Source: Candidatus Hydrogenedens sp.
GTDB taxonomy: Bacteria > Hydrogenedentota > Hydrogenedentia > Hydrogenedentales > Hydrogenedentaceae
DNA: 64,000 nt
Direction: 5' to 3'
Assembly (NCBI GenBank): GCA_049968235.1
Contig: JBMFRC010000008.1
Location: 79,157-143,156, forward strand
Shown here one piece after another: positions 26,180 through 61,835 of this stretch (its first letter is position 1; each line of letters opens with the position of its first letter). The notes under the pieces are model-generated. The model had not been told where the DNA came from, did no database searches, and saw only the letters and a list, made by a program, of their open reading frames with translations. The position numbers were made by a program, and so were the translations under genes.

Positions 26180-27040
<861 letters not shown>

Positions 27041-27382
27041 AATTTAATTGAAAAAGGGTATATCAAAATTGGGGAGTTCTTATATTCCAAAGATGGTAAA
27101 TACATCGCATGTGTTTTAGCAGATGTATCTATTCTTTACGATAACATAGCAGGTTCCATTCATAAGATAAGTGCTAAAATATTAGGAAAAGAAAATAATA
27201 ACGGCTGGACTTATTGGCATGTAAAAAGAGAAAATAAGATAATTTGTATTGACCAATTAAGATATGAATATGAAAAGAAATATCTTACGAGTTCTTTTGA
27301 TTATGGTATTTTTGACTTTGAAAAAGAATCTTCACTAACAGTCAAGGATGAAAGTTTCTTATATGAAAATAATGGAATATAA
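27041..27382 (+). other. in-frame continuation of the methyltransferase after the TGA, 113 codons encoding a CcrM-type C-terminal DNA-binding domain
   Basis: Same frame as 26213..27040 and open to TAA 27380-27382. It encodes …GSIHKISAKILGKENNNGWTYWHVK…, matching CcrM CTD motifs (GSIHKIGA…NGWTYWHF) as I recall them. Confidence 0.6.
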
Positions 27383-28235
27383 CGAATTTAAAATGATATT
27401 AAATAAAAACATATTCGAACGCTCAAAGGCGGACTTGCTTGAAAAAATTGCGAATTCTCCTTCAAGATATATTGGACTTTTTAGACCTACCAAACCAAAA
27501 GGTAAAATTCTTCAAGATATATTACAATCATACGAAATCCGTTTTGGAAATGCATTTGAGGAAGTTTTCGAAAAATATTTAGGATACATGGGATTTGAAA
27601 TACTAAAAAAGGTATATGTTGACAAAAACAAAGGTATTAAAAATATATTGTGCGTAGACCAATGTTTCAGAAAAGAAGAGAAAGTATATTTCCTTGAACA
27701 AAAGGTTAGAGATGACCATGATTCTTCCAAAAAAAGAGGGCAAATAAAAAATTTTGAGGAAAAATTAAATATAATGCTATCAAAATTTTCAGAAAAAGAA
27801 CTCGTTGGTATTTTTTATTTCTTAGACCCTGAAATTGTTAAAAATAAACTCTATTATGAAAATGAATTAGAGACAATGAAAAGGGACTACAATGTAGAAA
27901 CACATTTATTCTATGGTGAAAAATTATTTGAATTTTTAGGCTATCCCAGTGTATGGAACGAAATTCTTAACTACCTTTCCCAATGGAAAAGAGAAATACC
28001 AGACATGCCAGAAATCAATTTTGACATAGACTATGAAAACACTTTCAATGAAATTAAAGATTTAAAACCACTCATTTTTAGGAGTCTACTTACTGACGAT
28101 ACAATATACGATGAAATTATTTGCACATTATTTCCTGATGGGAGAACTTTTAAATTATTAAGACAATATTTTATGCTTAAAAAGGGTTCTATTTACGAAA
28201 GATTAGTTAATTTGATTGACAAACGTATAAAATAA
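27348..28235 (+). CDS. hypothetical protein; candidate cognate type II restriction endonuclease
   Basis: A 295-aa ORF immediately downstream of and overlapping the methyltransferase. It is very AT-rich (roughly 28-30% GC) and Lys/Glu/Asn-rich. I do not recognise the family. Confidence 0.3.
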   Translation: MKVSYMKIMEYNEFKMILNKNIFERSKADLLEKIANSPSRYIGLFRPTKPKGKILQDILQSYEIRFGNAFEEVFEKYLGYMGFEILKKVYVDKNKGIKNILCVDQCFRKEEKVYFLEQKVRDDHDSSKKRGQIKNFEEKLNIMLSKFSEKELVGIFYFLDPEIVKNKLYYENELETMKRDYNVETHLFYGEKLFEFLGYPSVWNEILNYLSQWKREIPDMPEINFDIDYENTFNEIKDLKPLIFRSLLTDDTIYDEIICTLFPDGRTFKLLRQYFMLKKGSIYERLVNLIDKRIK

Positions 28236-45187: not shown

Positions 45188-46750
45188 ATGTCTATCCTAT
45201 TGATACTTTTATTATTAACTACTGCTTTTTCACAAACAGAAAAAGAAACTCTTATACAAAATGCCTATCTTAATGGACAAGCCCTTCTTTTCTGTAGAAA
45301 TGTTCTCAATGGATGGATGCAATTTGCGGACCCGGATATAGATTTATTCCCGCGAAATTTGAAAGGAGATACTTATTGGAATGCAAAAGATTGTTCTGCT
45401 GATAACTATCCGTTTCTCACTTTAACTGCTTATTTCACAGACCGTTATATATTTGACACACGAATGAAAAATATTCTTAAAAATGAACAAAAATTTTGCA
45501 ACCGTATGGGCTGTCTTCCCGATGATTTTGACCTTATAAAAAAGGATTTCAGACAACCTGAAATGAAACTATCCGAAATTATTTTTGGTGCATCGGAATA
45601 TATTAAGGATGGGCTTTTACCCTTAACAGAATATCTCGGACCAACGGAATGGTCTGAACGAATGATAGGGCTTATGGATGATATTTGGAAAAATGCAAAA
45701 ATAGAAACAGAAGTAGGGTTACTTCCAGATGTTTCCCATGAAGTCGGGGGAGATTTGTTACAAGGGTTATGTCGAATATATTGGTTAACAGGGGATGATA
45801 AATATAAAGAATGGGCATTTAAATTGGGGGATTATTTCCTCCTGTATCATCTGCCAACAGATAGCGAATATTTCCAACTGGATGACCATGGTTGTGAGGT
45901 TTTTGGGGGACTTTCTGAGGCATATCTGCTGTCCGCATATAAAGCCCCTGATAAAAGGGAACAATGGAAAGAACCCATGCATCGGATGATTCAGAAAATA
46001 TTGAAAACAGGAAGGAACAAAGAGGGGCTATTTTTTGAGGCAATCAATCCGAAAGAGGAGAAAGTAATTCGGGATACCCTGACGGATAATTGGGGCTATA
46101 ACTATAATGCTATTGCTACTGTGGGGATTCTGGATAATCAGAAAGAGTATGTACAGGAAGTGCAAAATACTCTGGATAAGTTATGGGATTCACGGGATTA
46201 TCCGTGGGAGAATGACGGGGCGGATGGATTGGCAGATTCGCTGGAAGGTTGCCTCAATTTAATAAATCGATTTCCATCTGTAAATGCGGAACGATGGGCT
46301 GATTATACCGCACAGCGTCTTTTAAAGAAACAAAGACCCTCTGGAATTGTGGAAGGTTGGCATGGAGATGGAAATACGACAAGAACTATGTTAATGTATG
46401 CTTTCTGGAAATCGCAAGGATGCTATGTTCTCCCATGGAACGCAGAAGTATTTGTCGGTTCCACAAAGAATGAAACAAATAAACTACAAATTATAGTAAA
46501 ATCGAATTGGAAATGGAATGGGAAACTAATGTTTGATATACCAAGATATAGAGATTATTTCCATTTCCCTATAGATTATCCACGATTAAATCAATTCCCA
46601 GAATGGTTCACAGTTGATAAGGACAAAGAATACCTCGTTTATATGGAAGAAAAAGATGAAATAAAGATGAAAGGGGAAGAATTGCAAAAAGGATTACCCC
46701 TCGTTCTTGCACCTAATTCTTCCATTCATATTTCAATATCCATTTTATAA
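45188..46750 (+). CDS. secreted hypothetical protein, possibly an (alpha/alpha)6 glycoside hydrolase
   Basis: Signal peptide. No confident family assignment. Confidence 0.35.
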   Translation: MSILLILLLLTTAFSQTEKETLIQNAYLNGQALLFCRNVLNGWMQFADPDIDLFPRNLKGDTYWNAKDCSADNYPFLTLTAYFTDRYIFDTRMKNILKNEQKFCNRMGCLPDDFDLIKKDFRQPEMKLSEIIFGASEYIKDGLLPLTEYLGPTEWSERMIGLMDDIWKNAKIETEVGLLPDVSHEVGGDLLQGLCRIYWLTGDDKYKEWAFKLGDYFLLYHLPTDSEYFQLDDHGCEVFGGLSEAYLLSAYKAPDKREQWKEPMHRMIQKILKTGRNKEGLFFEAINPKEEKVIRDTLTDNWGYNYNAIATVGILDNQKEYVQEVQNTLDKLWDSRDYPWENDGADGLADSLEGCLNLINRFPSVNAERWADYTAQRLLKKQRPSGIVEGWHGDGNTTRTMLMYAFWKSQGCYVLPWNAEVFVGSTKNETNKLQIIVKSNWKWNGKLMFDIPRYRDYFHFPIDYPRLNQFPEWFTVDKDKEYLVYMEEKDEIKMKGEELQKGLPLVLAPNSSIHISISIL

Positions 46751-47545
46751 AATGGCACCCTCCAAATTATTGGATTTCATTTTACGAGCAATATGAACAA
46801 TCAGCACCAATATTAAAAATGCAATAATAATCCCTATACCTTTATATCCGACCTTTGATACGATAGACCAAATGGCACCAAAAGCAGACAAAGCAAAAGA
46901 AATACAAAGTAATATATTCCACAACCACCATTTGGCTCCCCGAGGCAAATCTTCCTTTAATAATTTTTCCTGATTTAACAATAGCCAGAAAGATAGATAT
47001 GCCAGAGGCAATAAGGTCATACAGAATACAGATGTTGGAATAGCAAGCCACATCTGGGCATCTTTCCAGAATAAAACACCAATAAGGCTCAGTGATACCA
47101 TTAACCCTCCGAAGAATTGTGTCCAGCCTCGTAATGGTCGGTTTAAAAGTTCACAAAAACATAGACTATTGATAAGCATTAACATTGTGGATGCTCCCAA
47201 ACCCATTCCCAATACACCGATACCAAAGATATATTGGGCTATTTTAGAACCGGTTAAAGGTTTAAGTGCATCAGAAAGATTAAATGCATCACGACGAACC
47301 ATCATTGCAGACAATTTTCGGTCGGATTCCGGTAAGTTTCTAACTCTTTCTTCTTTTTCCTCATTGGATAAACTATTCCATACCTGTTCACCTATTTCGT
47401 AGATAACTCTTCCCTCCATAAGTTTTTGAAAACTTCCTATTAAATTGGGGGCAGGTTGAATGATATTACCCTTTTCATCTCGTTCACCCAGGAAACCCGG
47501 TGCAGGTTTAGCATGGAACGTGCCGCAGAAGCAATTACTACGCAA
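46745..47545 (-). CDS. polytopic membrane protein; possible C-terminal half of a split NRAMP/APC-fold transporter
   Basis: Five predicted TM helices after a hydrophilic start. It overlaps the upstream ORF by 106 nt in a different frame. Confidence 0.35.
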   Translation of the reverse strand: MRSNCFCGTFHAKPAPGFLGERDEKGNIIQPAPNLIGSFQKLMEGRVIYEIGEQVWNSLSNEEKEERVRNLPESDRKLSAMMVRRDAFNLSDALKPLTGSKIAQYIFGIGVLGMGLGASTMLMLINSLCFCELLNRPLRGWTQFFGGLMVSLSLIGVLFWKDAQMWLAIPTSVFCMTLLPLAYLSFWLLLNQEKLLKEDLPRGAKWWLWNILLCISFALSAFGAIWSIVSKVGYKGIGIIIAFLILVLIVHIARKMKSNNLEGAIL

Positions 47546-48501
47546 CTTGTAGCAAGGATAAATGGAAAAAATAGTCCTGTAGACAGGTCAAATATCGCTA
47601 ATCCACGAAATTCACGGTCCCAACCTTTTCGTAACATAGAATAAGGTAACATAAAAGTCATGTTTATACCCACTGCTGTTGCAGCAGCACTTATCATTAC
47701 ATCGCGTTGTTGAGAGACGATTAGATTTGTCCAGTAAGAACGAAATTTTTCAGGAACCTGTTCAATATAAGGTATCAAGTCTTTAGAGGGATGAAATAGT
47801 AATGAAAAATCCGGAATAAATCCTGCTAAATATTTTTGCCAATGAACCTGTCCTGTTACAGTTAATACGACAACAACACCGAAAAAGCATATAACAACAG
47901 AGCCTACCATTGTTTTGATAATTATTTCGAATATTTTTACACCTTTTCCTCCTACGGTATACATGGTAAGGAATGTTAGATTAATTCCTAACACAATGAG
48001 CCCTGCCATAACCTTACCTGTAAAAGGTTCTACCGTTGGAGGACCAAAAACTTGAGGAAGTAAATTCTGTTGAAAGGAGGCGATGGCAATAGAATATTGA
48101 GGCATAGACCAAACCATGTTTGCCAACATGGAAGCGAACAACCAACTCCAGCCTAATACAGGGCTTACAAACTCATTGATTGTTCGTACCGGTCTTCGTC
48201 CTGTGGATAGTGTTACATACGCAATAGCACTTAACATAATTATTCCAGCAATCATTGCCAGAGGTTGTAACCATAAAAGTCCAAAACCAACTAGTACACC
48301 TAAATACATACTGGATGATAAGGACCCACCTCCTAATGTTATTGCACTCTGAAGCCAACCCGGACCCGAAAGACGGACAAATGTTTTAAATAACTTCCCT
48401 TTCCCTCCTTTGCGGGACTGTATTATCATTTCCCGTTCTCTCTGTATATGGGGTGCGATAGATTTCATTTGCTCTAATACAGGGTCTTTGTATTCCGACA
48501 T
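47440..48501 (-). CDS. NRAMP-like membrane protein (N-terminal TM1-7 region)
   Basis: …GPGWLQSAITLGGG… resembles the NRAMP GPGFL…DPGN region, with DPGN replaced. Seven predicted TM helices. Confidence 0.4.
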   Translation of the reverse strand: MSEYKDPVLEQMKSIAPHIQREREMIIQSRKGGKGKLFKTFVRLSGPGWLQSAITLGGGSLSSSMYLGVLVGFGLLWLQPLAMIAGIIMLSAIAYVTLSTGRRPVRTINEFVSPVLGWSWLFASMLANMVWSMPQYSIAIASFQQNLLPQVFGPPTVEPFTGKVMAGLIVLGINLTFLTMYTVGGKGVKIFEIIIKTMVGSVVICFFGVVVVLTVTGQVHWQKYLAGFIPDFSLLFHPSKDLIPYIEQVPEKFRSYWTNLIVSQQRDVMISAAATAVGINMTFMLPYSMLRKGWDREFRGLAIFDLSTGLFFPFILATSCVVIASAARSMLNLHRVSWVNEMKRVISFNLPPI

Positions 48502-51933: not shown

Positions 51934-52983
51934 TTATTGTTTAGAGATAGTCTGCCACACTGTATAAGCTAGTTTTTCAGTTCCATCTGTTTTAATCAAT
52001 CCTATTGTATCATTTTCATTTAAATCGTGAAGCCATGGCCAACCCAGCAAATACAAATTTATTCCTCTATCTTTCGTAAGCCTGTTAACTAATTGAGTAA
52101 TAAATTCTGCTTGTGCTTGTTCACCCCCAAATTCTTTGAGTGAGGTCCATGCAACCTCTGAGAAACCAAATGCTTTCCCGTGCATGTATTCTAAAGCCCT
52201 AAAATAATAATCATCGGGAATTAATGATGGATTTGTAATTCCAAGGGAATAAGGATAACTTGTAAAAACAAGTAAATCCATTTTATCGGGATTGAATAAC
52301 CGAAGTATTTCCAAATCTGCTTCCCTATTCTCCGAAACAATTTCCCGAGCAAAAACACAGAATAGTTTGATCTCTGGAGAAAGTTTTTTTGCATCATCAT
52401 AAATTTCTTCATAGAGGCTTATAAAATAATGGAAGCCATTGGGACCTTCCAGTCCATATTTTTCATACCATCTATTTACTTCATTGCCAACAGAAAGATA
52501 TAATGGTCGAACGGTTTTTATCACATCTAAAACCGCCTTTTTGTATTCGCTCCTCCATGTTACATCGCTTAAACTCGCATTCTCTATTCCAGGTGGAATT
52601 ACAAGAGTTAACCCGCTTCCGAAGAAGGATAGATGAATAATGGGAAACATACCTTTGTTACGAACTAAATCCTGTACAAAAACCTGACCCCATTCTCCTT
52701 TTAAGTCATTTGCAAGGTTATAAAAAGTAGAAGGTTTTCCCCACACAGGAACAAATTCTGAATAGTGGCTTGCTTGTAAATACGCATCTTCAAAAGATTG
52801 CCCCCGGGCGGGAATGGGTAATAATCCCATAAAGAAACCTCGTATAGGAAGTTGATGCATATCTAATGGGACTATTTCGGGCTCATCAGAAATTGGTTTC
52901 TTACAGCCCGTAGGTAAGAAAAATATACAGAAAATTATAATACCGATGAAAATAACTTGTTTCCGTATATTTACTCTGTACAT
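51934..52983 (-). CDS. lipoprotein, clan GH-A TIM-barrel glycoside-hydrolase-like
   Basis: Lipobox LPTGC. VGNEVNRW looks like the NEP acid/base motif. GFSEVAW looks like the nucleophile Glu motif. Confidence 0.45.
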   Translation of the reverse strand: MYRVNIRKQVIFIGIIIFCIFFLPTGCKKPISDEPEIVPLDMHQLPIRGFFMGLLPIPARGQSFEDAYLQASHYSEFVPVWGKPSTFYNLANDLKGEWGQVFVQDLVRNKGMFPIIHLSFFGSGLTLVIPPGIENASLSDVTWRSEYKKAVLDVIKTVRPLYLSVGNEVNRWYEKYGLEGPNGFHYFISLYEEIYDDAKKLSPEIKLFCVFAREIVSENREADLEILRLFNPDKMDLLVFTSYPYSLGITNPSLIPDDYYFRALEYMHGKAFGFSEVAWTSLKEFGGEQAQAEFITQLVNRLTKDRGINLYLLGWPWLHDLNENDTIGLIKTDGTEKLAYTVWQTISKQ

Positions 52984-53120
52984 CTATTTTATCTCAAAAT
53001 ACTTTATATAACATATTATATGATACACAAATATAGTGATTTATTTAATAAGAAACCATAAAACAAATAGAGGAGTAGTCCGGAAACTACTCCTCTATAT
53101 TTATTGAAATGATATAGGGT

Positions 53121-56015
53121 TTAGTTCTTCATAAAATCTGCTACTTTACGCCAACGTAGCAATAACAATCCGGAAACCAATCCTAACGTCAGCATATCTC
53201 CGACATGTGAACTATTTGTGCTACTTCCCGAACCGCACGATACGATGAAACGACGTTTTGCACCTTTGCTGATTACAAGGTTAACCGCACTTCCACGGTC
53301 TACTTGAGAACCGGCGGTTGGGGCTTGACGAATCACTTTACCTTTTGGAACTTTATCACTATATTCCTGAGTAATAGTGCCTACAATCAGACCTGCAGAA
53401 GTAATTAGAGACCTTGCTTCTGCTTCCGTTTTTCCGACCACATCCGGGACAGTAACTTTATTGCTTGGAGTTTCACCTTCACCTTCTATAGTTCCTTCCG
53501 GGCTCCCTTCGGGAGTTCCTTCAACTACACCCTCATGTGCCCCTTCGGGTGTCCCTTCGACTAAACCTTCAGAAGTCCCTTCCGGGGTCCCTTCCACTAC
53601 ACCTTCGGGAGTTCCTTCGGGGGTCCCTTCTCCTTCTGGGGTCGGTTCTTGTTTTAATATTTTCGGTGCTTTCGGGTCATTAAACATAGGAACATGTGCA
53701 TATATATCGTTAATCCGTACTTGTGCCAATACCAAATCCGCATTACCTCCATCACCTTTCATGGTAAACTGGATATTGACCAATACAACACCATCTCCCT
53801 TTGTCCCTATGTTCTCTTCACCTGCAGCACTGATTCTCAAACTACCACTGGAATTGACATCATCATTGTAAACTAATTCTAATCCACTGGCAGAAGAGCC
53901 TAATTCTACACTATCCACCTGGGCTAAATCTTTATCAAAATTAAGCACCATCGCAAAACCGGATATGTTTGCCACATTATCGGCTAATACAGATATAGTT
54001 TTCTGAGTTCCGGGTTCGCCTGTCAATGCTTCACTTAACCAGACATTTACAGATACATCTGATTTCTCTATCTCGGCTAAGATGGCTTCTGCGGATAAAG
54101 AGCCTGCATCGGCTAACCACAAAACATCCTTGAGATATTCATCATAACTCTTCATTAATTCTTTTTGCTTCGGTGGAGTAATATTTTTCCCGGCTAACCA
54201 ACGCTGTATTAAACTGGAGTCTGCACTATCTACCAATCCATCAAGGTTAATATCACCCGATTTCATAATGCATTCATTTCCGGCAACTTTCTTAACCCAG
54301 TAAGATAAGATGTACTGTGCATCTGCTTTCTCTACAACTTTGTTATTATCTGCATCACCATGGATACATCCGCCGGTTACACATAACTGGCCATCTTCCA
54401 ATTCCAAATCCAGAGGTTTTGTTTGAGCATTTATCTCACCTGTATTGGCTACATCATAAAGTCGGACACCATTTCCGGCTCCGTCATCAGGGATAAGATG
54501 TAAAGAACCACATTGTGTATCTTCCAAAGATAGGTTTGGTTTTGCCAGAATATTAAATAATGTTCCTGCTCCATATAAACTTCCACCTTGAACGCCTGCT
54601 GCAGCAATACGAACATTATAGATACCTGCTCCTGTATATATTGCATTCGCTGAAATCATCATACCTACGGTAATACCTGAAGGTGCTACTTCCATATTAT
54701 CCATATCTAAAAGTAAATCGGCAGGAAGTTCTGCATCTATCTGAATTGATGTAGTGGACACATCATAGACCGACCTGGAATTAACCGGAATACGCACTTG
54801 CCACTGTTGTGGGTCTTGCGGATTTCGCTCCCACAAATATAGACTGGGTTCTTTGTAGGCAACATCATCAGGGAAGAATATTGTCAAAAACTGCCCTTTT
54901 ACCTGTTCTGAAGCAGGGGATAGATTTGTATACCTATTCACATCACTAACAGCCTGTATTGCATATTCATAATAAGTAGAAGGTTGAACAGTAGTATCTT
55001 CATATTCCAGCCCTGCAATATAACCTTCATACGGTTGTGCGGAAGGATTATTTAATCTTTCCCAGACAGGATTTCCCACTACACGGCGATATACATTATA
55101 TCCCGCTATATTATATTCTGGATTTGTATCCCAGGCTACGCGAACACTATGCGGTCCACTATAAACACGCGGTTTACTCGGCACCTGTATATTACCAGGT
55201 TCCAATTCCACAAGGACATTTGCACCAGAATTAACAGGTTGGACTGTCTTGGACTTATATTTACGTTTTGTAAAATCTAACCGATAAGGCGGGTTTAATG
55301 TGCCTAAATTAGGGAATGAAAAGCGTCCATTGGCATCGGTAACGACTGGTGCGGTGCTTTGCTTATCTGCAATGCTAATTTCAACAGTAACGCCCGCAAC
55401 GGGTTTTTTGCTAATACTATTGACAACTACTCCTTGAACCGTATTTGTTGTTTCTCCTTCAACAGTTCCTTCTGGCACCCCTTCCGGTGTACCTGTATAT
55501 TCACTCGTAAAATTAAAAGTTTCTGTGTTTGAATATAATTGTCCACCCGTTAAGCGGTACAAAGCCTGCGATTGGATTTGGGCAGGTCCTTGAGCCGAAG
55601 ATGGGATGCTTACATTTATACTTAGCTTGAAAGGGAAAGAGGGTACAAATATCCATCCGAATTCTAATGGATTTATCCCATCTGAAGCAGTACCAACCTG
55701 AGGAGCAATAGGAGGCTGATTTGTTCCTCCCTGATATTGCCATCCCGCAGGGAGCAAACAGGTTAAGCCTAATGCAGTTATCGTCTCCGATGTGTTTTTG
55801 TTAAATGTAATATTTACATTGATTGTGCTACCGGGGACATATTGGTTTTGCCCAACTGCATCCCCAAATACTCCTTGAACAATGCTAACTTCACTTGTCT
55901 GGGCATTTCCTTCTGCAATTATAACTAATGAAAAAAACATTAGTATCAAAGAAATACCTACGCTTTTCCCCCATAAATTGGGGAAAGCACTTGTCTTGAA
56001 AAATTTTTTAGTCAT
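53121..56015 (-). CDS. giant secreted multidomain protein: CarbopepD_reg-like, FN3-like, dockerin-like, TPEG linker, PASTA, C-terminal sorting-like tail
   Basis: Signal peptide. GVTVEI…TDANGRFSF (CarbopepD_reg-like). RVAWDTNPEYNIAGYNVYRR (FN3). GDADNNKVVEKADAQYIL and GDINLDGLVDSADSSLIQRWLAG (two dockerin calcium-binding loops). A TPEG repeat stretch. VPDVVGKTEAEARSLITSAGLIVG…GSAVNLVISKG (PASTA). The tail is RFIVSCGSG-TM-RWRK. Confidence 0.6.
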   Translation of the reverse strand: MTKKFFKTSAFPNLWGKSVGISLILMFFSLVIIAEGNAQTSEVSIVQGVFGDAVGQNQYVPGSTINVNITFNKNTSETITALGLTCLLPAGWQYQGGTNQPPIAPQVGTASDGINPLEFGWIFVPSFPFKLSINVSIPSSAQGPAQIQSQALYRLTGGQLYSNTETFNFTSEYTGTPEGVPEGTVEGETTNTVQGVVVNSISKKPVAGVTVEISIADKQSTAPVVTDANGRFSFPNLGTLNPPYRLDFTKRKYKSKTVQPVNSGANVLVELEPGNIQVPSKPRVYSGPHSVRVAWDTNPEYNIAGYNVYRRVVGNPVWERLNNPSAQPYEGYIAGLEYEDTTVQPSTYYEYAIQAVSDVNRYTNLSPASEQVKGQFLTIFFPDDVAYKEPSLYLWERNPQDPQQWQVRIPVNSRSVYDVSTTSIQIDAELPADLLLDMDNMEVAPSGITVGMMISANAIYTGAGIYNVRIAAAGVQGGSLYGAGTLFNILAKPNLSLEDTQCGSLHLIPDDGAGNGVRLYDVANTGEINAQTKPLDLELEDGQLCVTGGCIHGDADNNKVVEKADAQYILSYWVKKVAGNECIMKSGDINLDGLVDSADSSLIQRWLAGKNITPPKQKELMKSYDEYLKDVLWLADAGSLSAEAILAEIEKSDVSVNVWLSEALTGEPGTQKTISVLADNVANISGFAMVLNFDKDLAQVDSVELGSSASGLELVYNDDVNSSGSLRISAAGEENIGTKGDGVVLVNIQFTMKGDGGNADLVLAQVRINDIYAHVPMFNDPKAPKILKQEPTPEGEGTPEGTPEGVVEGTPEGTSEGLVEGTPEGAHEGVVEGTPEGSPEGTIEGEGETPSNKVTVPDVVGKTEAEARSLITSAGLIVGTITQEYSDKVPKGKVIRQAPTAGSQVDRGSAVNLVISKGAKRRFIVSCGSGSSTNSSHVGDMLTLGLVSGLLLLRWRKVADFMKN
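53470..53650 (-). repeat. in-frame low-complexity tandem repeat encoding (T/S)PEG(V/T)xEG linker units
   Basis: Reiterated cccttc(g/c)gg… units on the + strand. They encode PTPEGEGTPEGTPEGVVEGTPEGTSEGLVEGTPEGAHEGVVEGTPEGSPEGTIEGEGE. Confidence 0.8.
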
Positions 56016-56089
56016 GTCTGTCTCCTTTCGGTTATTTGTTTCTGTGTTTTACATATCTAAACTAATTTTATCATAACTAAAATACATTT

Positions 56090-56098
56090 GTTGTAAAC
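56090..56098 (-). promoter_or_regulatory. candidate extended -10 element (TGTTATAAT on the minus strand) upstream of 53121..56015
   Basis: attataaca on the + strand is TGTTATAAT on the coding strand, about 75 nt upstream of the start codon. No clear -35. Confidence 0.25.
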
Positions 56099-56190
56099 TA
56101 TTATAACAAGAGCAAAAAGAATATAGAGGTATCCTCTTTTATAGCCAGTAGGATGCCTCATTGTTTCATTATAATGCTTCCTCTGTATTT

Positions 56191-58515
56191 TTAGTTAAGA
56201 AATGGGGATTTGATTTTCCGTCCTACGCGAATAAGAAGTAAACCAGAGGTCAAACTAAGCAGGATTATATCTGCTAGGTATGAACTATGGGTGTTATTGA
56301 GACCACAGGATACGATAAATCTGGGTTTTGCTCCTTTGCTTACTACCAGGTTTACAGCAGACCCAGAATTTACCTGTGTTTGAGCGGGAGGATTTTGACT
56401 AATTACTTTGCCTGCAGGGACAGTATCACTATATTCCCGAGTAATAGAGCCTACAACCAGACCTGCAGAAGTAATTAGAGACCTTGCTTCTGCTTCCGTT
56501 TTCCCAACCACATCCGGGACGGTAACTTTACTTAGAGTTTCCCCTTCTGTTGTTCCTTCGGGAGTCCCTTCTGTTGTTCCTTCCTGCGTTCCTTCTGGAG
56601 TCGGTTCCTGCTTCAAAATTTTCGGAGCTTTCGGGTCATTAAATAACGGAACATGGGCATAAACATCGTTAATTCTTACCTGGGCTAACACTAACTCCGC
56701 ATTTCCACCATCATCTTTCATTCTGAAACGAACCTTTAATAATTCAACGCCGTTCCCTTTTACACCTATATTATTTTCACCCGCAGCACTTACTCTGAGA
56801 TTGCCACTATCGTTTACATCAGAGTTATAACTTAGTTGTAACCCTGTTGCAGCATTACCTAACTGAACACTTACTACCTCTGCTAAATCTTTATCGAAAT
56901 TCAACATCATGTTATAACCCGATATATTAGCCACATTATCTGCTAATACAGATATGGTCTTTTCGGTTCCCGCAGTACCTGTTAATACATCACTTAACCA
57001 AACATTAACAGTAACATCTGCTTTCTCTATATCTGCCAAAATTGCTTCTGCGGATAATGACCCCGCATCTGCTAACCATAAAACATCCTGGAGATATTCA
57101 TCATAACTCTTTTCTAATCCTTTAGTTTTGGGTGGTGTTATATCTTTTCCTGCCAACCAGCGTTGAATTAAACTGGAGTCCGCACTATCTACCAGTCTGT
57201 CAAGGTTAATATCACCTGATTTCATGATACATTCATTGCCATTGTTCTTCTTTACCCAATAGTCTAATACATATTGAGCATCTGCTTTCTCTACAATTTT
57301 GTTATTATCTGCATCACCATGGATACATCCACCTGTCACGCAAAGTTCTCCATCTTGTAATTCCAGGTCCAGTGGTCTCGAGATCGAGGTTACATCATAT
57401 AGACGCACTCCATTTCCTGCACCATCATCCGGAATAAGATGTAAAGGACCACATTGTGTCCCTTGAACAGATAAATTAGGGCTCGCAAGAATATTAAATA
57501 ATGTTCCACTTCCATATAAACTACCTGCTTCTACCCCTGCAGCTGCTATGCGAACACTTATCTTATTATTCTGATAGGTTGCATTTGCAGATATTATCAT
57601 ACCCGCTGTTATCCCTGACGGCTGAACATCTATAGTATTCGGGTCTAATAATAATCCAGAAGGTAATTCTGCATCTATTTGCACTGATGTGGCAGATACA
57701 TCATAAACCGATTTCGAGTTTACTGGAATACGCACCTGCAATTGTTGTGGGTTTTGTGGATTTCGCTCCCACAGATATAGACCCGCATCATTATAATTTA
57801 CTTGTTCTGGGAAAAATACCGTTAAGAATTGTCCTTTTACCTGTTCTGAAGCGGAGGATAAACCTGTATAACCGTCAACATCACTAACAGCCTGAATTGC
57901 ATATTCATATAAGGTGGAAGGTTGCACTGTTTTATCTTCATATTCAAGCCCGGCAATATAATTTTCATACGGCTGAGAACTAGGGCTGTTCAATCTTTGC
58001 CACGTTTGCGTTCCTGCTATACGACGATAAACATTATACCCCGCAATATTGTATTCCGGATTAGCGTCCCATCCTACACGAACGCTACGAGGACCACTAT
58101 ATACACGCGGAATCGCTGGTGTTTGAATGTTGCCCGGTTCTAATTCTACCTGAATATTCGCACCAGAATTAACAGGTTGAACGGTTTTGGGCTTATATTT
58201 ACGCTTTGTAAAATCTAACCGATAAGGCGGGTTTAATGTGCCTAAATTAGGGAATGAAAAGCGTCCATTGGCATCGGTAACGACTGGTGCGGTGCTTTGT
58301 TTATCCGCGACACTGATTTCTACTGTGACACCTGCTACAGGTTTTTTACTGATACTATTGATTACCTGTCCTTGAACATTGTTCACAGATTGACCCTCAA
58401 CATGAGCAATAAAAATTGTGCTGGATGTTAACCCTATTAATAATGTAATTATGGCTAATACAAGAACTTTTGTTAAAGATGATTTGACACATAATACACT
58501 TTTAAACATACTCAT
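56191..58515 (-). CDS. paralog of 53121..56015, lacking the first ~190 aa; same CarbopepD_reg/FN3/dockerin/PASTA/C-terminal-tail architecture
   Basis: Long stretches are identical or near-identical to the upstream copy at both protein and nucleotide level. It has its own signal peptide. Confidence 0.6.
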   Translation of the reverse strand: MSMFKSVLCVKSSLTKVLVLAIITLLIGLTSSTIFIAHVEGQSVNNVQGQVINSISKKPVAGVTVEISVADKQSTAPVVTDANGRFSFPNLGTLNPPYRLDFTKRKYKPKTVQPVNSGANIQVELEPGNIQTPAIPRVYSGPRSVRVGWDANPEYNIAGYNVYRRIAGTQTWQRLNSPSSQPYENYIAGLEYEDKTVQPSTLYEYAIQAVSDVDGYTGLSSASEQVKGQFLTVFFPEQVNYNDAGLYLWERNPQNPQQLQVRIPVNSKSVYDVSATSVQIDAELPSGLLLDPNTIDVQPSGITAGMIISANATYQNNKISVRIAAAGVEAGSLYGSGTLFNILASPNLSVQGTQCGPLHLIPDDGAGNGVRLYDVTSISRPLDLELQDGELCVTGGCIHGDADNNKIVEKADAQYVLDYWVKKNNGNECIMKSGDINLDRLVDSADSSLIQRWLAGKDITPPKTKGLEKSYDEYLQDVLWLADAGSLSAEAILADIEKADVTVNVWLSDVLTGTAGTEKTISVLADNVANISGYNMMLNFDKDLAEVVSVQLGNAATGLQLSYNSDVNDSGNLRVSAAGENNIGVKGNGVELLKVRFRMKDDGGNAELVLAQVRINDVYAHVPLFNDPKAPKILKQEPTPEGTQEGTTEGTPEGTTEGETLSKVTVPDVVGKTEAEARSLITSAGLVVGSITREYSDTVPAGKVISQNPPAQTQVNSGSAVNLVVSKGAKPRFIVSCGLNNTHSSYLADIILLSLTSGLLLIRVGRKIKSPFLN
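56540..56630 (-). repeat. shorter TPEG-type linker repeat in the second paralog
   Basis: Encodes PTPEGTQEGTTEGTPEGTTEGE. Confidence 0.75.
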
Positions 58516-58607
58516 TCTCCTTTAATTTTAATTTTAATTTTTTTACCGCTTTTACGATGAGTCCCTCTAATCCCATCGTACTCTCCCATACTAGAGAGGT
58601 CATTTAA

Positions 58608-58616
58608 ATTATAACA
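58608..58616 (-). promoter_or_regulatory. candidate extended -10 element (TGTTATAAT on the minus strand) upstream of 56191..58515
   Basis: The same 9-mer as upstream of the paralog, about 95 nt upstream of the start codon. Confidence 0.25.
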
Positions 58617-58914
58617 CAAATTTCAAAAGTTTGCATAAATTTTTATAATTCTTTATAGATAGTGTTAAAATGTAAGATTTTCTCTCCGAGTAAGAGGCCT
58701 ATTTCAATATAAATCATACAAAATACCATTTCTACATGCTATTTATAGTAAATATATGCTATTTTTTACTGTTATAATGAAACCTTACATCAAATTAAAA
58801 CTCTATTATAAAAAATCTATCTGATTATAGTATTCATTGATATAAATTAATGTGAGATGTAATCGAAGTATTAACTCACTTGTAATTACTTTTCTTTTCT
58901 TGTAATTAAGAATA

Positions 58915-60345
58915 CTATTTTTTAATAGGAATTTTGTATTCTCTCATTTTTCGCCACAGCGTAGAACGCGAGATACCTAATATTCGTGCCGCTTCAGTTT
59001 GGTTATGATTAACTTTTTCCAGCACTTTTTGAATATGGTTTGCCTCTACTTCTGCCAGGGGTAGAAGCCCATTATCCTCTTCATGAGGAAGTGCAAGTAT
59101 CTTAAACCTACCCCGTTGTATATTCTCAGGCAAATCATATACACGGATAATCGGTTCTTCTGCCATAATAACCGCATGGGCAATGATACTTTCCAATTCC
59201 CGGACATTTCCCGGAAATGGATAAGTTCTTAATACAGCAATGGCGGAATTATCAATCCCCTGAATATTTTTTCCAAATTTTTGATTGTACCGTGAAATAA
59301 AATGCTGGATTAAAGTGGGTAATGCATCTATTCGTTCACGCAGAGGAGGAATACGAATTTGAATGACATTTAGTCGATAGAACAAATCATCACGGAATCT
59401 ATGTTTCTCGACCTCCTCCTGTAAATTTTTATTTGTAGCAGACAGAATGCGGACATTTACTTTTTGTATTATATTAGAACCTACAGGGCGAATTTCGCCA
59501 TTTTGTAAAACACGAAGTAGTTTTGCTTGTGTGGATAATGCCATATCGCCGATTTCATCTAAAAAAACCGTTCCTCCATCTGCCTCTGCAAATAGTCCTC
59601 GCTTATCTTTTTCTGCCCCGGTAAAAGCCCCCTGAACATGTCCAAAAAGTTCACTTTCTAATAAATTTTCAGGTAATGCGGCACAATTAATCGCAATAAA
59701 AGGTTTATCACTACGAGAACTAAGCCGATGAAGTATCTGAGCAACGACTTCTTTTCCAACACCGCTTTCACCTAAAATCAGAACCGTACTGTCTGTAGGA
59801 GCTACTTTACGTATAATTTCCACAACACGACGCATCTGAGCATTATTACCGGATAATTCTTCAAATAAGATTTGTTCAAACCCGGCTTCTTGTAATTTTT
59901 CTCTATGATGTTCCAATACAGCCCGATGAACCATTACCGCAATATCCGTAGGGTCACACTTCTTAGGGATATAAAAATATGCCCCCATTCGAATACCTTC
60001 AAGGGCTTGTTCTATTTGTTCCATATTGTAAAGGAGAATTAATTTTACGGAGGGGAACTTCTGCCTAAGAAAGGAAACAAGATTAATATTACCTTTGTAT
60101 TCTATGGATAAATCTAAAAGAATTACATCACATACGGTTCGACGGGAACATGTCAAAATCTGCTCCGTAGAACTGCATAAAATAACAGTATGCCCCGTTC
60201 CTTCGATAAAGCGAGAAACAGTACTGAGGTAATCCATATCAGAGCCAATGATAAATACAGTCCCCTGTTCTCGAGCAAGAGGTGGCTCATTCTGTTCAAA
60301 AAGTTTCAAATTGATAATATCTTTTTTTGTTTTTTTATCGGTCAT
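58915..60345 (-). CDS. sigma-54-dependent response regulator (REC + AAA+ sigma-54 activator + Fis-type HTH)
   Basis: GESGVGKE Walker A, GAFTGA motif, ESELFGH, and a C-terminal HTH. The receiver is atypical: GSD in place of the DD pair, with a phospho-acceptor-like D in VILLDLS. Confidence 0.85.
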   Translation of the reverse strand: MTDKKTKKDIINLKLFEQNEPPLAREQGTVFIIGSDMDYLSTVSRFIEGTGHTVILCSSTEQILTCSRRTVCDVILLDLSIEYKGNINLVSFLRQKFPSVKLILLYNMEQIEQALEGIRMGAYFYIPKKCDPTDIAVMVHRAVLEHHREKLQEAGFEQILFEELSGNNAQMRRVVEIIRKVAPTDSTVLILGESGVGKEVVAQILHRLSSRSDKPFIAINCAALPENLLESELFGHVQGAFTGAEKDKRGLFAEADGGTVFLDEIGDMALSTQAKLLRVLQNGEIRPVGSNIIQKVNVRILSATNKNLQEEVEKHRFRDDLFYRLNVIQIRIPPLRERIDALPTLIQHFISRYNQKFGKNIQGIDNSAIAVLRTYPFPGNVRELESIIAHAVIMAEEPIIRVYDLPENIQRGRFKILALPHEEDNGLLPLAEVEANHIQKVLEKVNHNQTEAARILGISRSTLWRKMREYKIPIKK

Positions 60346-60527
60346 AATTTTCCCATATATTTATTCTTAAAATTAATTGTATCAAAAATAAAGAGGCAGT
60401 TTAAGGATTTATTGTTTATTTTTTATATATACGAACAAAATTTTCGGGAATAGGACTAATCTATACACATCACCTCACATACAAAAAAAAATAGTTTTTC
60501 CTCCCTTTTGATGGTTTAAAATAAGAA

Positions 60528-60581
60528 CGCCACGACAGGCTTCTGTCATGGCGCTATTCTGGATGCTTGCCCTTGCGGGCA
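60528..60581. other. two adjacent GC-rich stem-loops in a divergent intergenic region; possible structured RNA or regulatory element
   Basis: cgccacgacag-gctt-ctgtcatggcg is an 11-bp stem with one C/T (G-U capable) position. ttgccc-ttgc-gggca is a 5-bp GC stem. Both sit in a locally GC-rich patch within an otherwise AT-rich 530-bp spacer. Confidence 0.3.
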
Positions 60582-60878
60582 TTTCTGACTTCCGTGTCTT
60601 TTGCCTCAACCTCCATGTGTCGGCTTCCATTATATATTATCGGCAAAGAAAATATTTTCTTTAATGTACATTTATTCCCAATTTGCGGATATATAAATGG
60701 AAATAATCAAAAAACATTCATAATTTCATTATTGAAACAATAAAATGGTTAAACTCTAATTTTGGAAAGGTATAGTCTATATAACAAAGTTCATAAAAAA
60801 GATACAAAGGGTTTGCCTTTTACAAAGTTTTTTTATTAGACTTTTATTTCCAGGTCAAATAATAACAAGGGGAAGTTT

Positions 60879-61835
60879 ATGAAAATATTAATTACAGGTG
60901 TAGCAGGATTTATTGGTTCCAATCTTGCAGATCGACTTATTGAATGCAAATATGAGGTTATTGGAATTGATGATTTCAGTCCCACTTATGACCCACAGAT
61001 AAAACGAAAATATATAGAAAATGCTTCCCAATCTCCACTGTTTGTAATGTATGAAGCAGATATATGTGATAGAGAGACAATATATGATATTTTTGAAACA
61101 CAAAAGCCGGATGTAGTCGTTCATCTTGCTGCACGAGCAGGAGTTCGTCCCTCTCTTGAAAATCCTGAAGAATATTACCGCATAAACATTATAGGTTCGC
61201 AAAATATACTTGATGCCTGTCGGGATATCCGTCCTTCTCATCTAATATTTGCATCCAGTTCATCGGTATATGGTGGAAGTAAATCCATCCCTTATGCGGA
61301 AGAGGACCCTGTAATGTATCCCATCAGTCCTTATGCAGTAACTAAGCGAACAAATGAACTTCAATCTCATGTTTATAGTTCCATTTATGGACTGAATATA
61401 ACCATGCTTCGTTTTTTTACGGTATACGGCCCACGACAAAGACCTGATATGGGAATACATAAATTTACAAAACAAATTATCGCGGGGAAACCTGTTATTC
61501 TTTTCGGCGACGGAACTTCCGCTCGTGATTATACTTATATTGATGATATACTTGACGGGATTATGAAAAGTATAGAGAGACCGTTCCAGTATGAAATCTT
61601 CAATCTGGGTGAAAGTCGAACAACAAAACTTATTGACCTTATAGAAATCATTTCAAAATGTGTGGGAAAGCCCGCTGAAATAGAATGGCAACCTTATCAG
61701 CCAGGAGATGTAGAAATTACTTATGCAGATATTACCCATGCCCGCACTTTACTCAACTATAAACCTTGTATCCCCGTAGAAGAAGGTATTCAACGATATG
61801 TTCACTGGTTCAAGAAGTTTTATAACATTGATTAG
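60879..61835 (+). CDS. NAD-dependent epimerase/dehydratase, UDP-glucuronate 4-epimerase-like
   Basis: ITGVAGFIGSNL, and RFFTVYGPRQRPDMG, which resembles the RFFTVYGPWGRPDMA hallmark of UDP-GlcA epimerases. Confidence 0.75.
   Translation: MKILITGVAGFIGSNLADRLIECKYEVIGIDDFSPTYDPQIKRKYIENASQSPLFVMYEADICDRETIYDIFETQKPDVVVHLAARAGVRPSLENPEEYYRINIIGSQNILDACRDIRPSHLIFASSSSVYGGSKSIPYAEEDPVMYPISPYAVTKRTNELQSHVYSSIYGLNITMLRFFTVYGPRQRPDMGIHKFTKQIIAGKPVILFGDGTSARDYTYIDDILDGIMKSIERPFQYEIFNLGESRTTKLIDLIEIISKCVGKPAEIEWQPYQPGDVEITYADITHARTLLNYKPCIPVEEGIQRYVHWFKKFYNID

What the first reader, a model, noticed from the sequence alone, without database searches (positions are those of the whole stretch)
53121..58515. 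Tandem, partially gene-converted pair of giant secreted proteins combining CarbopepD_reg, FN3, dockerin-like, TPEG-linker and PASTA domains, next to a sigma-54 activator
The two adjacent minus-strand genes are 964 and 774 aa. They share long blocks of identical nucleotide sequence, for example 55261-55400 against 58201-58340, which indicates recent duplication or ongoing gene conversion. Both carry a signal peptide and a CarbopepD_reg-like beta-sandwich. Both have an FN3 module (RVAWDTNPEYNIAGYNVYRR) and two dockerin-type calcium-binding loops (GDADNNKVVEKADAQYIL, GDINLDGLVDSADSSLIQRWLAG). Both have a Thr-Pro-Glu-Gly repeat linker and a canonical PASTA domain (VPDVVGKTEAEARSLITSAGLIVG…). PASTA domains are typical of PBPs and Ser/Thr kinases in Gram-positive bacteria. 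Combining PASTA with a dockerin and a CarbopepD_reg domain in a secreted protein is not an arrangement I recognise. Both promoter regions contain the same TGTTATAAT extended -10 element. A sigma-54 enhancer-binding response regulator gene (58915..60345) sits immediately upstream. The first copy has an extra ~190-aa N-terminal region with a second TPEG stretch.
Basis: partly seen in the sequence, partly recalled or inferred. Interest (0 to 1): 0.75.

Follow-up and report, generated by a model that had tools for sequence, protein, structure and literature searches.

The report
Paired cohesin–dockerin envelope proteins, new anchor
Two neighbouring genes of an uncultured Hydrogenedens bacterium encode old paralogous envelope proteins built around a cohesin–dockerin–cohesin core, held by a PASTA domain plus a previously uncatalogued cysteine-containing C-terminal anchor that the same bacteria also attach to unrelated surface proteins.

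Summary
The two minus-strand genes are real: A 53121-56015 (964 aa) and B 56191-58515 (774 aa). They are 72% identical in protein and about 77% in DNA. The source is Candidatus Hydrogenedens, a candidate phylum predicted to be Gram-negative.

PASTA and CarboxypepD_reg pass Pfam thresholds. Dockerin passes only with a family profile. FN3 is supported only at fold level.

- Both proteins end in a conserved tail: KRRFIVSCG, a polar spacer, Asp plus a membrane helix, then basic residues. So they are anchored, not freely secreted.
- The duplication is old. The B→A pair occurs in five assemblies, and orthologues are more similar than paralogues.

Gene conversion is limited to two short tracts specific to this lineage (95 and 45 identical nt). 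The quoted "identical block" is 2 nt out of register.

The tail has no NCBIfam model. It gives about 18 credible hits among 1.84 billion representatives and also ends at least four unrelated architectures. In sister lineages two such units are fused into one ORF.

No σ54 promoter is present. I rate this a new variant of known kinds, of moderate interest.

The parts
53121..56015 (-). Gene A, 964 aa. Order of modules: signal peptide, N-module, TPEG linker, CarboxypepD_reg, FN3-like, cohesin 1, dockerin, helical linker, cohesin 2, TPEG linker, PASTA, C-terminal anchor tail.
   Evidence: ORF; Pfam; local family HMMs.
56191..58515 (-). Gene B, 774 aa. Same architecture as A but without the N-module and first TPEG linker.
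   Evidence: ORF; Pfam; AF2 model with pLDDT 78.5 and pTM 0.68.
55500..55898 (-). A residues ~40-172: an unannotated beta-rich 'N-module', followed by TPEG linker 1 (55446-55499).
   Evidence: No Pfam or PDB sequence match. The same module occurs 3 times in P0043 (E 5e-18 to 3e-15) and once in P0014 (61% identity).
55224..55442 (-). A CarboxypepD_reg domain (residues 192-264). The B counterpart is at 58138-58383.
   Evidence: PF13620: 46.2 bits for A and 48.5 bits for B, against a cutoff of 32.3.
57841..58119 (-). B FN3-like beta-sandwich (residues 133-225). The A counterpart is at ~54903-55181.
   Evidence: Pfam fn3 gives only E 0.17. The AF2 model shows a confident beta-sandwich, and Foldseek hits FN3 tandems.
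57334..57834 (-). B cohesin 1 (residues 228-394), divergent at sequence level. The A counterpart is at 54375-54896.
57130..57333 (-). B type-I-like dockerin (residues 395-462) with two Ca-binding loops and invariant Cys397/Cys429. The A counterpart is at 54171-54374.
   Evidence: The family profile matches solved dockerins at E 9e-9 and covers both repeats. Single-sequence Pfam gives 17.9 bits, below the 22.9 cutoff, and only for A.
56611..57018 (-). B cohesin 2 (residues 500-635), preceded by a two-helix linker (57019-57129). The A counterpart is at 53652-54059.
   Evidence: PF00963: 31.3 bits for B and 27.5 bits for A, against a cutoff of 24.1. The family profile matches solved cohesins at E 6e-7.
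56533..56610 (-). B Thr/Pro/Glu/Gly disordered linker. The A counterpart at 53463-53651 is about 2.5 times longer.
   Evidence: pLDDT below 50 at B residues 637-660. DNA tandem repeats: 24 nt x 2.3 at 56542-56597 and 36 nt x 3.5 at 53505-53630.
56332..56532 (-). B PASTA domain (residues 662-728). The A counterpart is at 53265-53456.
   Evidence: PF03793: 74.1 bits for B and 72.9 bits for A, against a cutoff of 23.2. The AF2 model shows the alpha+beta fold at pLDDT about 90.
56194..56331 (-). B C-terminal anchor or sorting tail: PRFIVSCG, a 10-residue polar spacer, Asp plus a membrane helix (residues 747-767), then R/K. The A counterpart is at 53124-53264.
   Evidence: Alignment A5 has invariant K, C, G and D. 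No NCBIfam model matches. About 18 credible hits among 1.84 billion representatives, all at the C-terminus.
55267..55361 (-). Gene-conversion tract 1, A copy. It is identical to B 58205-58299 (95 nt) and lies in the CarboxypepD_reg domain.
   Evidence: A-B identity here is 0.95-1.00, against 0.79 in L008 and 0.77-0.87 for orthologue pairs.
53388..53432 (-). Gene-conversion tract 2, A copy. It is identical to B 56458-56502 (45 nt) and lies at the start of PASTA.
   Evidence: A-B identity is 0.93 in this genome against 0.69-0.75 in other genomes.
56100..56108 (-). Extended -10-like TGTTATAAT of gene A.
   Evidence: Conserved as TGTTA(C/T)AAT in three of the four orthologous loci and degenerate in L009.
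56114..56159 (-). Intrinsic terminator after gene B: GAGGCATCC ... GGATACCTC followed by a T-run.
   Evidence: The hairpin and T-run are conserved in five orthologous loci. The scan finds the core at 56137-56125.
58516..58616 (-). Gene B promoter-like TGTTATAAT (58608-58616) and a conserved ~90-nt leader with a hairpin.
   Evidence: alignment. One compensatory pair among 3 sequences. No Rfam match.
53067..53098 (-). Strong intrinsic terminator after gene A (14-bp stem plus T-run).
58915..60345 (-). Adjacent NtrC-type σ54 activator (REC, AAA+, HTH_8). It is a neighbour and is not shown to regulate A or B.
   Evidence: Pfam. Adjacency is conserved in L008 but not in the rearranged L009. No -24/-12 element.

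Best explanation
A and B are ancient tandem paralogues. Each has its own promoter, and a terminator lies between them.

Shown:
- Each protein has an N-terminal signal peptide and an ectodomain of CarboxypepD_reg, an FN3-like domain, and a rigid cohesin–dockerin–two-helix–cohesin core.
- A disordered acidic TPEG stalk follows, then one PASTA domain, then a C-terminal anchor: basic-FIVSCG, a polar spacer, Asp plus a membrane helix, and a basic end.
- The cassette '0-3 PASTA + tail' is modular. Hydrogenedens also places it at the end of unrelated passenger proteins.

Inferred:
- PASTA here acts as an anchoring module at the membrane/peptidoglycan interface, not as a kinase or PBP sensor.
- Each protein carries both partners of a cohesin–dockerin pair. 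No other dockerin or cohesin carriers were found nearby. Sister lineages fuse two such units into one polypeptide. The units therefore most likely bind one another, homo- or heterotypically between A, B and their paralogues, and build an envelope-attached multimeric layer or fibril rather than recruiting enzymes.
- The tail may be only a membrane anchor, or it may be cleaved at the Cys motif as in the MYXO-CTERM class. That question is open.
- Short gene-conversion events occasionally homogenise patches of the two genes.
For: - Tail conservation and modularity: invariant C, G and D; no NCBIfam hit; about 18 credible hits in 1.84 billion representatives. The same tail ends P0040 (DUF7948 + Ig-like + CarboxypepD_reg + PASTA), P0043 (Ig-like repeats, no PASTA), L022 (TIG) and L014 (3 PASTA). 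There are 2-4 loci per genome in 5 genomes.
- PASTA is optional and variable within the family, 0 to 3 copies.
- Self-contained units: a local HMM census over 336 kb finds dockerin and cohesin only as one Coh1–Doc–Coh2 unit per family protein.
- Fusion: L024 and L023/P0016 carry continuous two-unit ORFs, and P0014 and P0007 overlap exactly by 19 residues.
- Independent transcription: a conserved terminator and -10 element lie between B and A.
- Old duplication with conversion.
- Diderm host: PMC11406978, a GT9 heptosyltransferase in the window, and MlaDEF in L004.
Against: - No binding data exist, and I could not inspect model coordinates. Whether the dockerin binds a cohesin in cis, in trans, or not at all is unknown.
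- The dockerin/cohesin census covers only 336 kb, and that DNA is biased towards family loci.
- In a diderm, a helix anchored in the inner membrane would leave the whole ectodomain in the periplasm, which is an odd place for a cohesin–dockerin lattice unless the tail is processed and the protein is exported.
- PASTA domains do not always bind peptidoglycan.
- The P0014/P0007 join rests on a 19-residue overlap in a repetitive linker.
Confidence: 0.55

Rival explanations
1. Cis-locked structural stalk. The dockerin binds one of its own flanking cohesins within the same molecule. The Coh–Doc–Coh block is then just a rigid spacer of a monomeric adhesin whose working end is the N-terminal CarboxypepD_reg, FN3-like domain and N-module.
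For: Cohesin 1 runs into the dockerin with no linker (…ELCVTGGCIHGD…), and four invariant Cys residues lie around the junction. The full-length pTM of 0.68 implies confident inter-domain packing. The second dockerin helix (DSADSSLIQRWL) is almost invariant across the family, as expected for a partner that co-evolves in the same chain.
Against: Two cohesins for one dockerin leaves one cohesin free. Fused two-unit genes and 3-4 paralogues per genome fit inter-unit contacts better. I could not inspect the coordinates.
Confidence: 0.2
2. Cellulosome-like anchoring scaffoldin. The cohesins recruit dockerin-bearing hydrolases to the cell surface for polymer degradation.
For: The layout (cohesins, Pro/Thr-rich linkers, a C-terminal wall-anchoring module) resembles anchoring scaffoldins, and the best structural matches are cellulosomal cohesins. 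The neighbourhood holds glycosidase-like genes and a Metallophos + CBM9 gene.
Against: The neighbouring enzymes carry no dockerin. No dockerin occurs outside the family in 336 kb. There is no CBM in A or B. The family's contexts are otherwise housekeeping or envelope genes.
Confidence: 0.1
3. The tail is a true sorting signal of the invariant-Cys class. A dedicated intramembrane protease cleaves it near SCG, the new C-terminus is modified, and the protein is moved to the outer surface.
For: It has the tripartite design, lies at the extreme C-terminus, has an invariant Cys, ends at least five architectures, occurs several times per genome and is lineage-restricted. All of these are hallmarks listed by Haft (bioRxiv 10.1101/2023.06.07.544157). 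For MYXO-CTERM they were verified experimentally (PMC11980579).
Against: No known CTERM HMM matches. A spacer of about 10 residues separates the motif from the helix, unlike the four described Cys signals. No CPBP-like ORF lies next to any tail gene or anywhere in the DNA held. PASTA sits directly before the motif, which fits a permanent inner-membrane-proximal position.
Confidence: 0.3
4. A and B are σ54-dependent targets of the adjacent NtrC-type response regulator.
For: The regulator lies directly upstream on the same strand in the window and in L008.
Against: No GG-N10-GC element lies upstream of B in three loci. The only match upstream of A lies inside the terminator hairpin, occurs in 2 of 5 loci and matches 7-8 of 12 consensus positions. 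Both genes have σ70-type extended -10 elements. The paralogues P0008 and P0011, and L009, lack the regulator.
Confidence: 0.1
5. The tandem copies are an assembly artefact, that is a duplicated contig join.
For: None beyond the presence of repeated sequence.
Against: The copies differ at about 25% of nucleotides. The B→A order recurs in L001, L008, L009 and L011, from independent assemblies, and each copy has its own orthologue.
Confidence: 0.01

Closest known systems
Non-cellulosomal cohesin/dockerin proteins, for example the Archaeoglobus fulgidus cohesin (PDB 2xdh). [quoted passage not shown] 2009).
   Different: Here the order is fixed as cohesin–dockerin–cohesin, with no linker between cohesin 1 and the dockerin. 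The unit is combined with CarboxypepD_reg and an FN3-like domain and is attached to a PASTA + Cys-tail anchor. The host is a Gram-negative candidate phylum.
Cellulosomal anchoring scaffoldins (SdbA, OlpB and ScaB with SLH modules; ScaE with LPXTG). Cited from my own knowledge.
   Same: Cohesins, Pro/Thr-rich linkers and a C-terminal cell-envelope anchoring module.
   Different: The anchor is PASTA plus a new tail rather than SLH or LPXTG. The dockerin is in the same chain. No CBM and no enzyme-borne dockerins were found.
PASTA domains of class B PBPs (PBP2x) and PknB/Stk1-type Ser/Thr kinases.
   Same: A clear PF03793 match, with the best NCBIfam match to the Stk1 PASTA region. The domain sits on the extracytoplasmic side next to a membrane helix.
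   Different: There is no transpeptidase or kinase domain. PASTA precedes a C-terminal helix instead of following an N-terminal one. The host is predicted to be diderm. PASTA copy number varies from 0 to 3 in front of the same tail on unrelated proteins.
[quoted passage not shown]
   Same: Signature motif with an invariant Cys, then a membrane helix, then a basic C-terminus. Present on several unrelated surface proteins per genome and restricted to one lineage.
   Different: No HMM match. The motif is K/R-R-F-I-V/I-S-C-G, followed by a spacer of about 10 polar residues and an invariant Asp at the start of the helix. No cognate protease has been identified.

Membership tests
PASTA (PF03793) | HMM score above the Pfam gathering cutoff | tested here: met
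   72.9 bits (A) and 74.1 bits (B) against a cutoff of 23.2, with full-length 1-64/64 matches.
PASTA (PF03793) | Small alpha+beta fold: one helix packed on a three-stranded sheet | tested here: met
   AF2 model of B residues 662-728 shows strand, helix 674-683, then strands, at pLDDT about 90.
PASTA (PF03793) | Resides in a PBP or a Ser/Thr kinase | tested here: not met
   A and B have no transpeptidase or kinase domain.
PASTA (PF03793) | Binds muropeptide, lipid II or beta-lactam | not testable with these tools
   Needs binding assays.
Cohesin (PF00963) | HMM score above the gathering cutoff | tested here: met
   Cohesin 2 scores 27.5 bits (A) and 31.3 bits (B) against a cutoff of 24.1. Cohesin 1 has no sequence-level hit.
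Cohesin (PF00963) | Nine-stranded jelly-roll cohesin fold | tested here: met
Cohesin (PF00963) | Binds a dockerin | not testable with these tools
   Needs pull-down or ITC, or access to model coordinates or AF-multimer.
Dockerin type I (PF00404) | HMM score above the gathering cutoff | tested here: not met
   A scores 17.9 bits, below the 22.9 cutoff; B has no hit. Some homologues pass, for example P0018 at 36.5 bits.
Dockerin type I (PF00404) | Duplicated Ca-binding loop plus helix, homologous to solved dockerins | tested here: met
   The family profile matches 4fl4_A at E 9e-9 and about 30 further dockerins, spanning profile positions 5-61 of 69. Both loops have D/N at positions 1, 3, 5 and 12 (read from the sequence).
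FN3 (PF00041) | HMM score above the gathering cutoff, or an FN3 fold | tested here: inconclusive
   Pfam gives 12.5 bits, below the 25 cutoff, and only for B. The AF2 model shows a beta-sandwich, and Foldseek aligns FN3 tandems at E about 1e-7, but across several domains.
CarboxypepD_reg (PF13620) | HMM score above the gathering cutoff | tested here: met
   46.2 bits (A) and 48.5 bits (B) against a cutoff of 32.3.
Cellulosome scaffoldin | Enzyme-borne dockerins in the same organism that dock onto the cohesins | tested here: inconclusive
   None found in 336 kb of Hydrogenedens DNA, but no complete genome was surveyed.
Cellulosome scaffoldin | A carbohydrate-binding module in the scaffoldin | tested here: not met
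   A and B have no CBM.
Invariant-Cys tripartite C-terminal sorting signals (MYXO-CTERM class) | Signature motif, membrane helix and basic cluster at the extreme C-terminus | tested here: met
   Alignment A5; AF2 helix at B residues 747-767; all credible hits end within about 10 residues of the C-terminus.
Invariant-Cys tripartite C-terminal sorting signals (MYXO-CTERM class) | Invariant Cys in the motif | tested here: met
   Cys is invariant in 14 of 14 aligned tails and is retained in P0040, P0043 and L011-L022.
Invariant-Cys tripartite C-terminal sorting signals (MYXO-CTERM class) | Present on multiple unrelated proteins per genome | tested here: met
   At least five architectures, and 2-4 loci per genome.
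Invariant-Cys tripartite C-terminal sorting signals (MYXO-CTERM class) | No spacer between the motif and the membrane segment | tested here: not met
   About 10 polar residues lie between CG and the Asp that starts the helix.
Invariant-Cys tripartite C-terminal sorting signals (MYXO-CTERM class) | Recognised by an existing CTERM model in NCBIfam | tested here: not met
   Six tails gave 0 hits at E ≤ 10.
Invariant-Cys tripartite C-terminal sorting signals (MYXO-CTERM class) | A cognate CPBP-family intramembrane protease co-distributed with the signal | not testable with these tools
   None is adjacent or present in the DNA held. Whole-genome phylogenetic profiling is needed.
σ54-dependent gene | A -24 GG / -12 GC promoter upstream | tested here: not met
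Gene conversion between paralogues | Tracts where paralogues in one genome are more alike than orthologues, and synonymous sites are also identical | tested here: met
   In tract 1, A-B identity is 1.00 against 0.79 and 0.76 for orthologues, and third-codon-position identity is 0.97 against a background of about 0.55.

The most novel reading that the evidence does not exclude
[quoted passage not shown] Together with PASTA it forms a cassette that tethers diverse surface proteins to the peptidoglycan or envelope of a Gram-negative bacterium. The cohesin–dockerin–cohesin units of A, B and their paralogues polymerise into a cell-surface lattice that is not a cellulosome.
Probability: 0.3. Interest if true: 0.65.

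Novelty: new variant of a known kind. Interest (0 to 1): 0.5.

Why it matters
Every module here is a known type, so the interest lies in the combination and in the tail.
- **Anchoring role for PASTA:** PASTA is normally treated as a sensor of Gram-positive PBPs and kinases. Here it appears to be a reusable anchoring module in a predicted Gram-negative candidate phylum.
- **Candidate new sorting signal:** the tail would add a candidate to the recently opened class of Cys-containing C-terminal sorting signals. It would also give a handle for finding its processing enzyme.
- **Test case for non-cellulosomal cohesin–dockerin function:** the unit is self-contained and is sometimes duplicated and fused, which makes it a clean system for asking what these pairs do.

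All of this concerns uncultured organisms and is so far purely computational.

Tried and rejected
- **Tail profile, word-indexed search:** it found only two fragments of the same family. The exhaustive search was the one that revealed the other architectures.
- **PASTA-only homology search:** three fragment hits, uninformative.
- **AFDB50 fold search:** the library was not available.
- **Cohesin 1 at sequence level:** the profile matched nothing among PDB sequences. Its hhalign comparison with cohesin 2 gave probability 12.6%. The fold search was needed to identify it.
- **A's N-module:** no Pfam, PDB or cohesin-profile match.
- **Leader RNA:** Rfam found no match on 52900-60900. Support for the leader hairpin is thin, with one compensatory pair among 3 sequences.
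- **σ54 promoter:** scans with up to 2 mismatches and with the GG-N10-GC core found nothing credible.
- **Adjacent sorting enzyme:** none recurs among the neighbours of seven distinct tail-gene contexts. A CPBP motif scan of all the DNA held found none, but that is a crude test.
- **Literature:** no paper combines PASTA with cohesin or dockerin, and none describes these proteins in Hydrogenedentota.
- **Lipobox reading:** 'IVSC' could be read as a lipobox, but the divergent clade has ILFC or VLFC and there is no preceding hydrophobic region, so I rejected it.

Full report
**Observation**

The two minus-strand ORFs exist exactly as described: A at 53121-56015 (964 aa) and B at 56191-58515 (774 aa). 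They align over 758 residues at 72% identity and at about 77% nucleotide identity.

The example of an 'identical block' (55261-55400 against 58201-58340) is 2 nt out of register and matches at only 33 of 140 positions as written. In register there is one exact 95-nt run (A 55267-55361 = B 58205-58299) and one 45-nt run (A 53388-53432 = B 56458-56502).

TGTTATAAT lies 85 and 93 nt upstream of the two start codons. There are three matches in the window against 1.78 expected, and two of them are at these positions on the correct strand. The gene at 58915-60345 encodes REC + σ54-interaction AAA+ + HTH_8.

**Source and family**

A 100%-identical partial protein is annotated as coming from Candidatus Hydrogenedens sp. 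About 30 clusters at 90% identity are related, and every named one is from Hydrogenedentota. The names given are only 'PASTA domain-containing protein', 'carboxypeptidase regulatory-like domain-containing protein', 'PKD domain-containing protein' or 'hypothetical protein'.

The phylum is predicted to be Gram-negative: the Raetz pathway is present in more than 94% of genomes (PMC11406978). Consistent with that, the window has a GT9 heptosyltransferase and a related locus has MlaDEF.

**Domain anatomy**

- **Above Pfam cutoff in both proteins:** PASTA (about 73 bits against 23.2), CarboxypepD_reg (46-48 bits against 32.3) and a cohesin (27.5 and 31.3 bits against 24.1).
- **Below cutoff:** Dockerin_1 scores 17.9 bits against 22.9, and only in A. 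fn3 reaches only E 0.17.
- **Dockerin with a family profile:** the profile matches about 30 solved type-I dockerins, best E 9e-9, across both Ca-binding repeats.
- **C-terminal cohesin with a family profile:** it matches solved cohesins at E 6e-7.
- **Full-length model of B:** the AF2 model, built with 19 homologues, is good (pLDDT 78.5, pTM 0.68). Its best PDB match is a cohesin dyad aligned over about 460 columns.

Each protein is therefore built, in order, from:
1. a signal peptide;
2. in A only, an unannotated N-module plus a TPEG linker;
3. CarboxypepD_reg;
4. an FN3-like sandwich;
5. cohesin 1;
6. a dockerin, joined to cohesin 1 with no linker and flanked by four invariant Cys;
7. a two-helix linker;
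8. cohesin 2;
9. a disordered TPEG linker, encoded by 24- or 36-nt DNA repeats;
10. PASTA;
11. a C-terminal tail.

**The tail**

All full-length family members end with basic-(F/L)-I-(V/I)-S-C-G, then about 10 polar residues, an invariant Asp, a hydrophobic helix and basic residues. The divergent clade has R-(I/V)-L-F-C-G instead.

- Six tails gave no hit to any NCBIfam model at E ≤ 10.
- An exhaustive HMMER search of 1.84 billion representatives found 20 proteins. Two of them are internal-repeat false positives, and the rest carry the match at the extreme C-terminus.
- The same tail ends proteins with quite different passenger regions:
  - P0040, L019 and L020: DUF7948 + 3 Ig-like domains + CarboxypepD_reg + TPEG linker + PASTA.
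  - P0043: 3 copies of the N-module + 6 Ig-like domains, without PASTA.
  - L022: an unknown region + TIG, without PASTA.
  - L014, L013, L021 and L015: 3 PASTA.
- A pattern scan of 185,579 species genomes found 12 loci in five genomes, all Hydrogenedens-type, with 2-4 loci per genome.
- Within the cohesin–dockerin family, PASTA copy number ranges from 0 to 3 in front of the same tail.

The tail thus has the tripartite, modular, lineage-restricted character of C-terminal sorting signals, and it shares an invariant Cys with the MYXO-CTERM class (Haft 2023; Guo et al. 2025). It differs from that class in having a spacer before the helix and in matching none of the existing models. No candidate protease lies next to any tail gene, and none was found in the DNA held.

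**Duplication history**

The B→A order is found in L001, L008, L009 and L011.

- Over the shared core, nucleotide identity is 0.77-0.85 for A against its orthologues and 0.75-0.83 for B against its orthologues.
- A against B is 0.74-0.77 in every genome. The duplication is therefore old and is not an assembly artefact.
- Two tracts are exceptions. In tract 1, A-B identity is 0.95-1.00 here, 0.79 in the closest relative and 0.77-0.87 for orthologue pairs, and synonymous sites are identical too. In tract 2, A-B identity is 0.93 here against 0.69-0.75 elsewhere.
- L001 has different elevated tracts of its own. This is the signature of occasional short gene conversion.

**Fusion evidence**

A's extra N-terminus is a mobile module.

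- In L024 a single ORF runs from a signal peptide through a complete unit and two PASTA domains, straight into that module and a TPEG linker. It leaves the contig with no stop codon.
- The last 19 residues of that ORF equal the first 19 residues of P0007, which continues with a second unit, PASTA and the tail.
- P0016 independently spans cohesin 2, PASTA and the next CarboxypepD_reg–FN3–cohesin 1.
- A rough NJ tree puts A, B, P0008 and P0007 in one clade.

Two units in one chain argue that the units act together.

**Regulation**

- Between B and A, a hairpin plus T-run terminator is conserved in all five loci. The following TGTTA(C/T)AAT is conserved in four of them and is degenerate in L009.
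- B has its own -10 element and a conserved leader of about 90 nt with a small hairpin and no Rfam match.
- No σ54 -24/-12 element lies upstream of B. The only GG-N10-GC upstream of A is inside the terminator arm, and it occurs in 2 of 5 loci.
- The activator is adjacent in the window and in L008. It is absent from the rearranged L009 and from the paralogues' loci.

**Interpretation**

The best reading, at confidence 0.55, has three parts. The proteins are envelope-anchored. Each carries a self-contained cohesin–dockerin–cohesin unit that binds other units. Each is attached by a generic PASTA + Cys-tail cassette.

Dockerins and cohesins occur nowhere else in the 336 kb examined, which argues against a cellulosome-type enzyme scaffold. 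That sample is small and biased, however.

Three points remain open: whether the dockerin binds in cis or in trans, whether the tail is cleaved, and in which envelope compartment the ectodomain sits.

Noticed in passing
window 17088-19172 (+) and 19196-20362 (+): A 694-aa protein combines 4Fe-4S ferredoxin motifs and an [FeFe]-hydrogenase large-subunit domain (E 8e-45) with HisKA + HATPase_c. This looks like a sensory hydrogenase fused to a histidine kinase. A hybrid REC-HisKA-HATPase protein follows it.
   Followed up: no
L024 4432-7456; L023 8501-10536; P0014 and P0007: In sister Hydrogenedens lineages, two cohesin–dockerin–cohesin units are fused into one ORF. The reconstructed protein is about 1,780 aa, and the contigs break inside the repetitive TPEG-coding linker.
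   Followed up: partly
window 58516-58607 (-): The ~90-nt leader of gene B is conserved in the window, L008 and L001. It has a hairpin (TACGATG…CATCGTA here, GATAAG…CTTATC in L001) followed by an invariant AAAAGCGGTAAAA. Rfam has no match.
   Followed up: partly
window ~56040-56095 (-): The 5'UTR of gene A contains a block (AAATGTATTTTAATTATG.TAAAATTAGTTTAGA) that is nearly invariant across five loci. It is far more conserved than the surrounding intergenic DNA.
   Followed up: no
window 46745-47545 (-) and 47440-48501 (-): The Nramp-family transporter is split into two overlapping ORFs in different frames. In L001, L008 and L009 it is a single gene of 582-598 aa. This is a frameshift, a pseudogene or a sequencing error.
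   Followed up: no
L004, L006, L010, L021: Peptidoglycan-remodelling genes lie within a few genes of other PASTA/tail proteins: Amidase_3 + M23 in L004, SLT in L006, YceG/MltG in L010 and Peptidase_M15 in L021. This is suggestive, but it is a post-hoc observation.
   Followed up: no
window 26001-28000; gene 26213-27040 (+): A 2-kb stretch has GC 0.298 against about 0.38 elsewhere. It carries an N6/N4 DNA methylase, and the neighbouring ORFs 25250-26020 and 27348-28235 have no Pfam match. It may be a restriction-modification islet.
   Followed up: no
window 4842-7900 (-) and 10250-12618 (+); 866-4858 (+); 7897-10113 (-): Four GDSL-like lipase paralogues are clustered with two large multi-pass TPR proteins, one of which has a PMT_2 glycosyltransferase domain. 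A PMT-family gene also lies just upstream of the B/A pair in L009. This raises the possibility that the Thr/Pro-rich linkers are O-glycosylated.
   Followed up: no
L008 10001-12293; L009 6786-8657: The B orthologue is frameshifted in L008 (582 + 173 aa). In L009 it is truncated at the N-terminus and the σ54 activator is missing, which indicates a local rearrangement.
   Followed up: partly
L014 (CAZJTZ010000034.1): A contig of a MAG labelled 'uncultured Nitrospirales bacterium' carries a typical Hydrogenedens 3-PASTA + tail gene. Mis-binning or mislabelling is likely.
   Followed up: no
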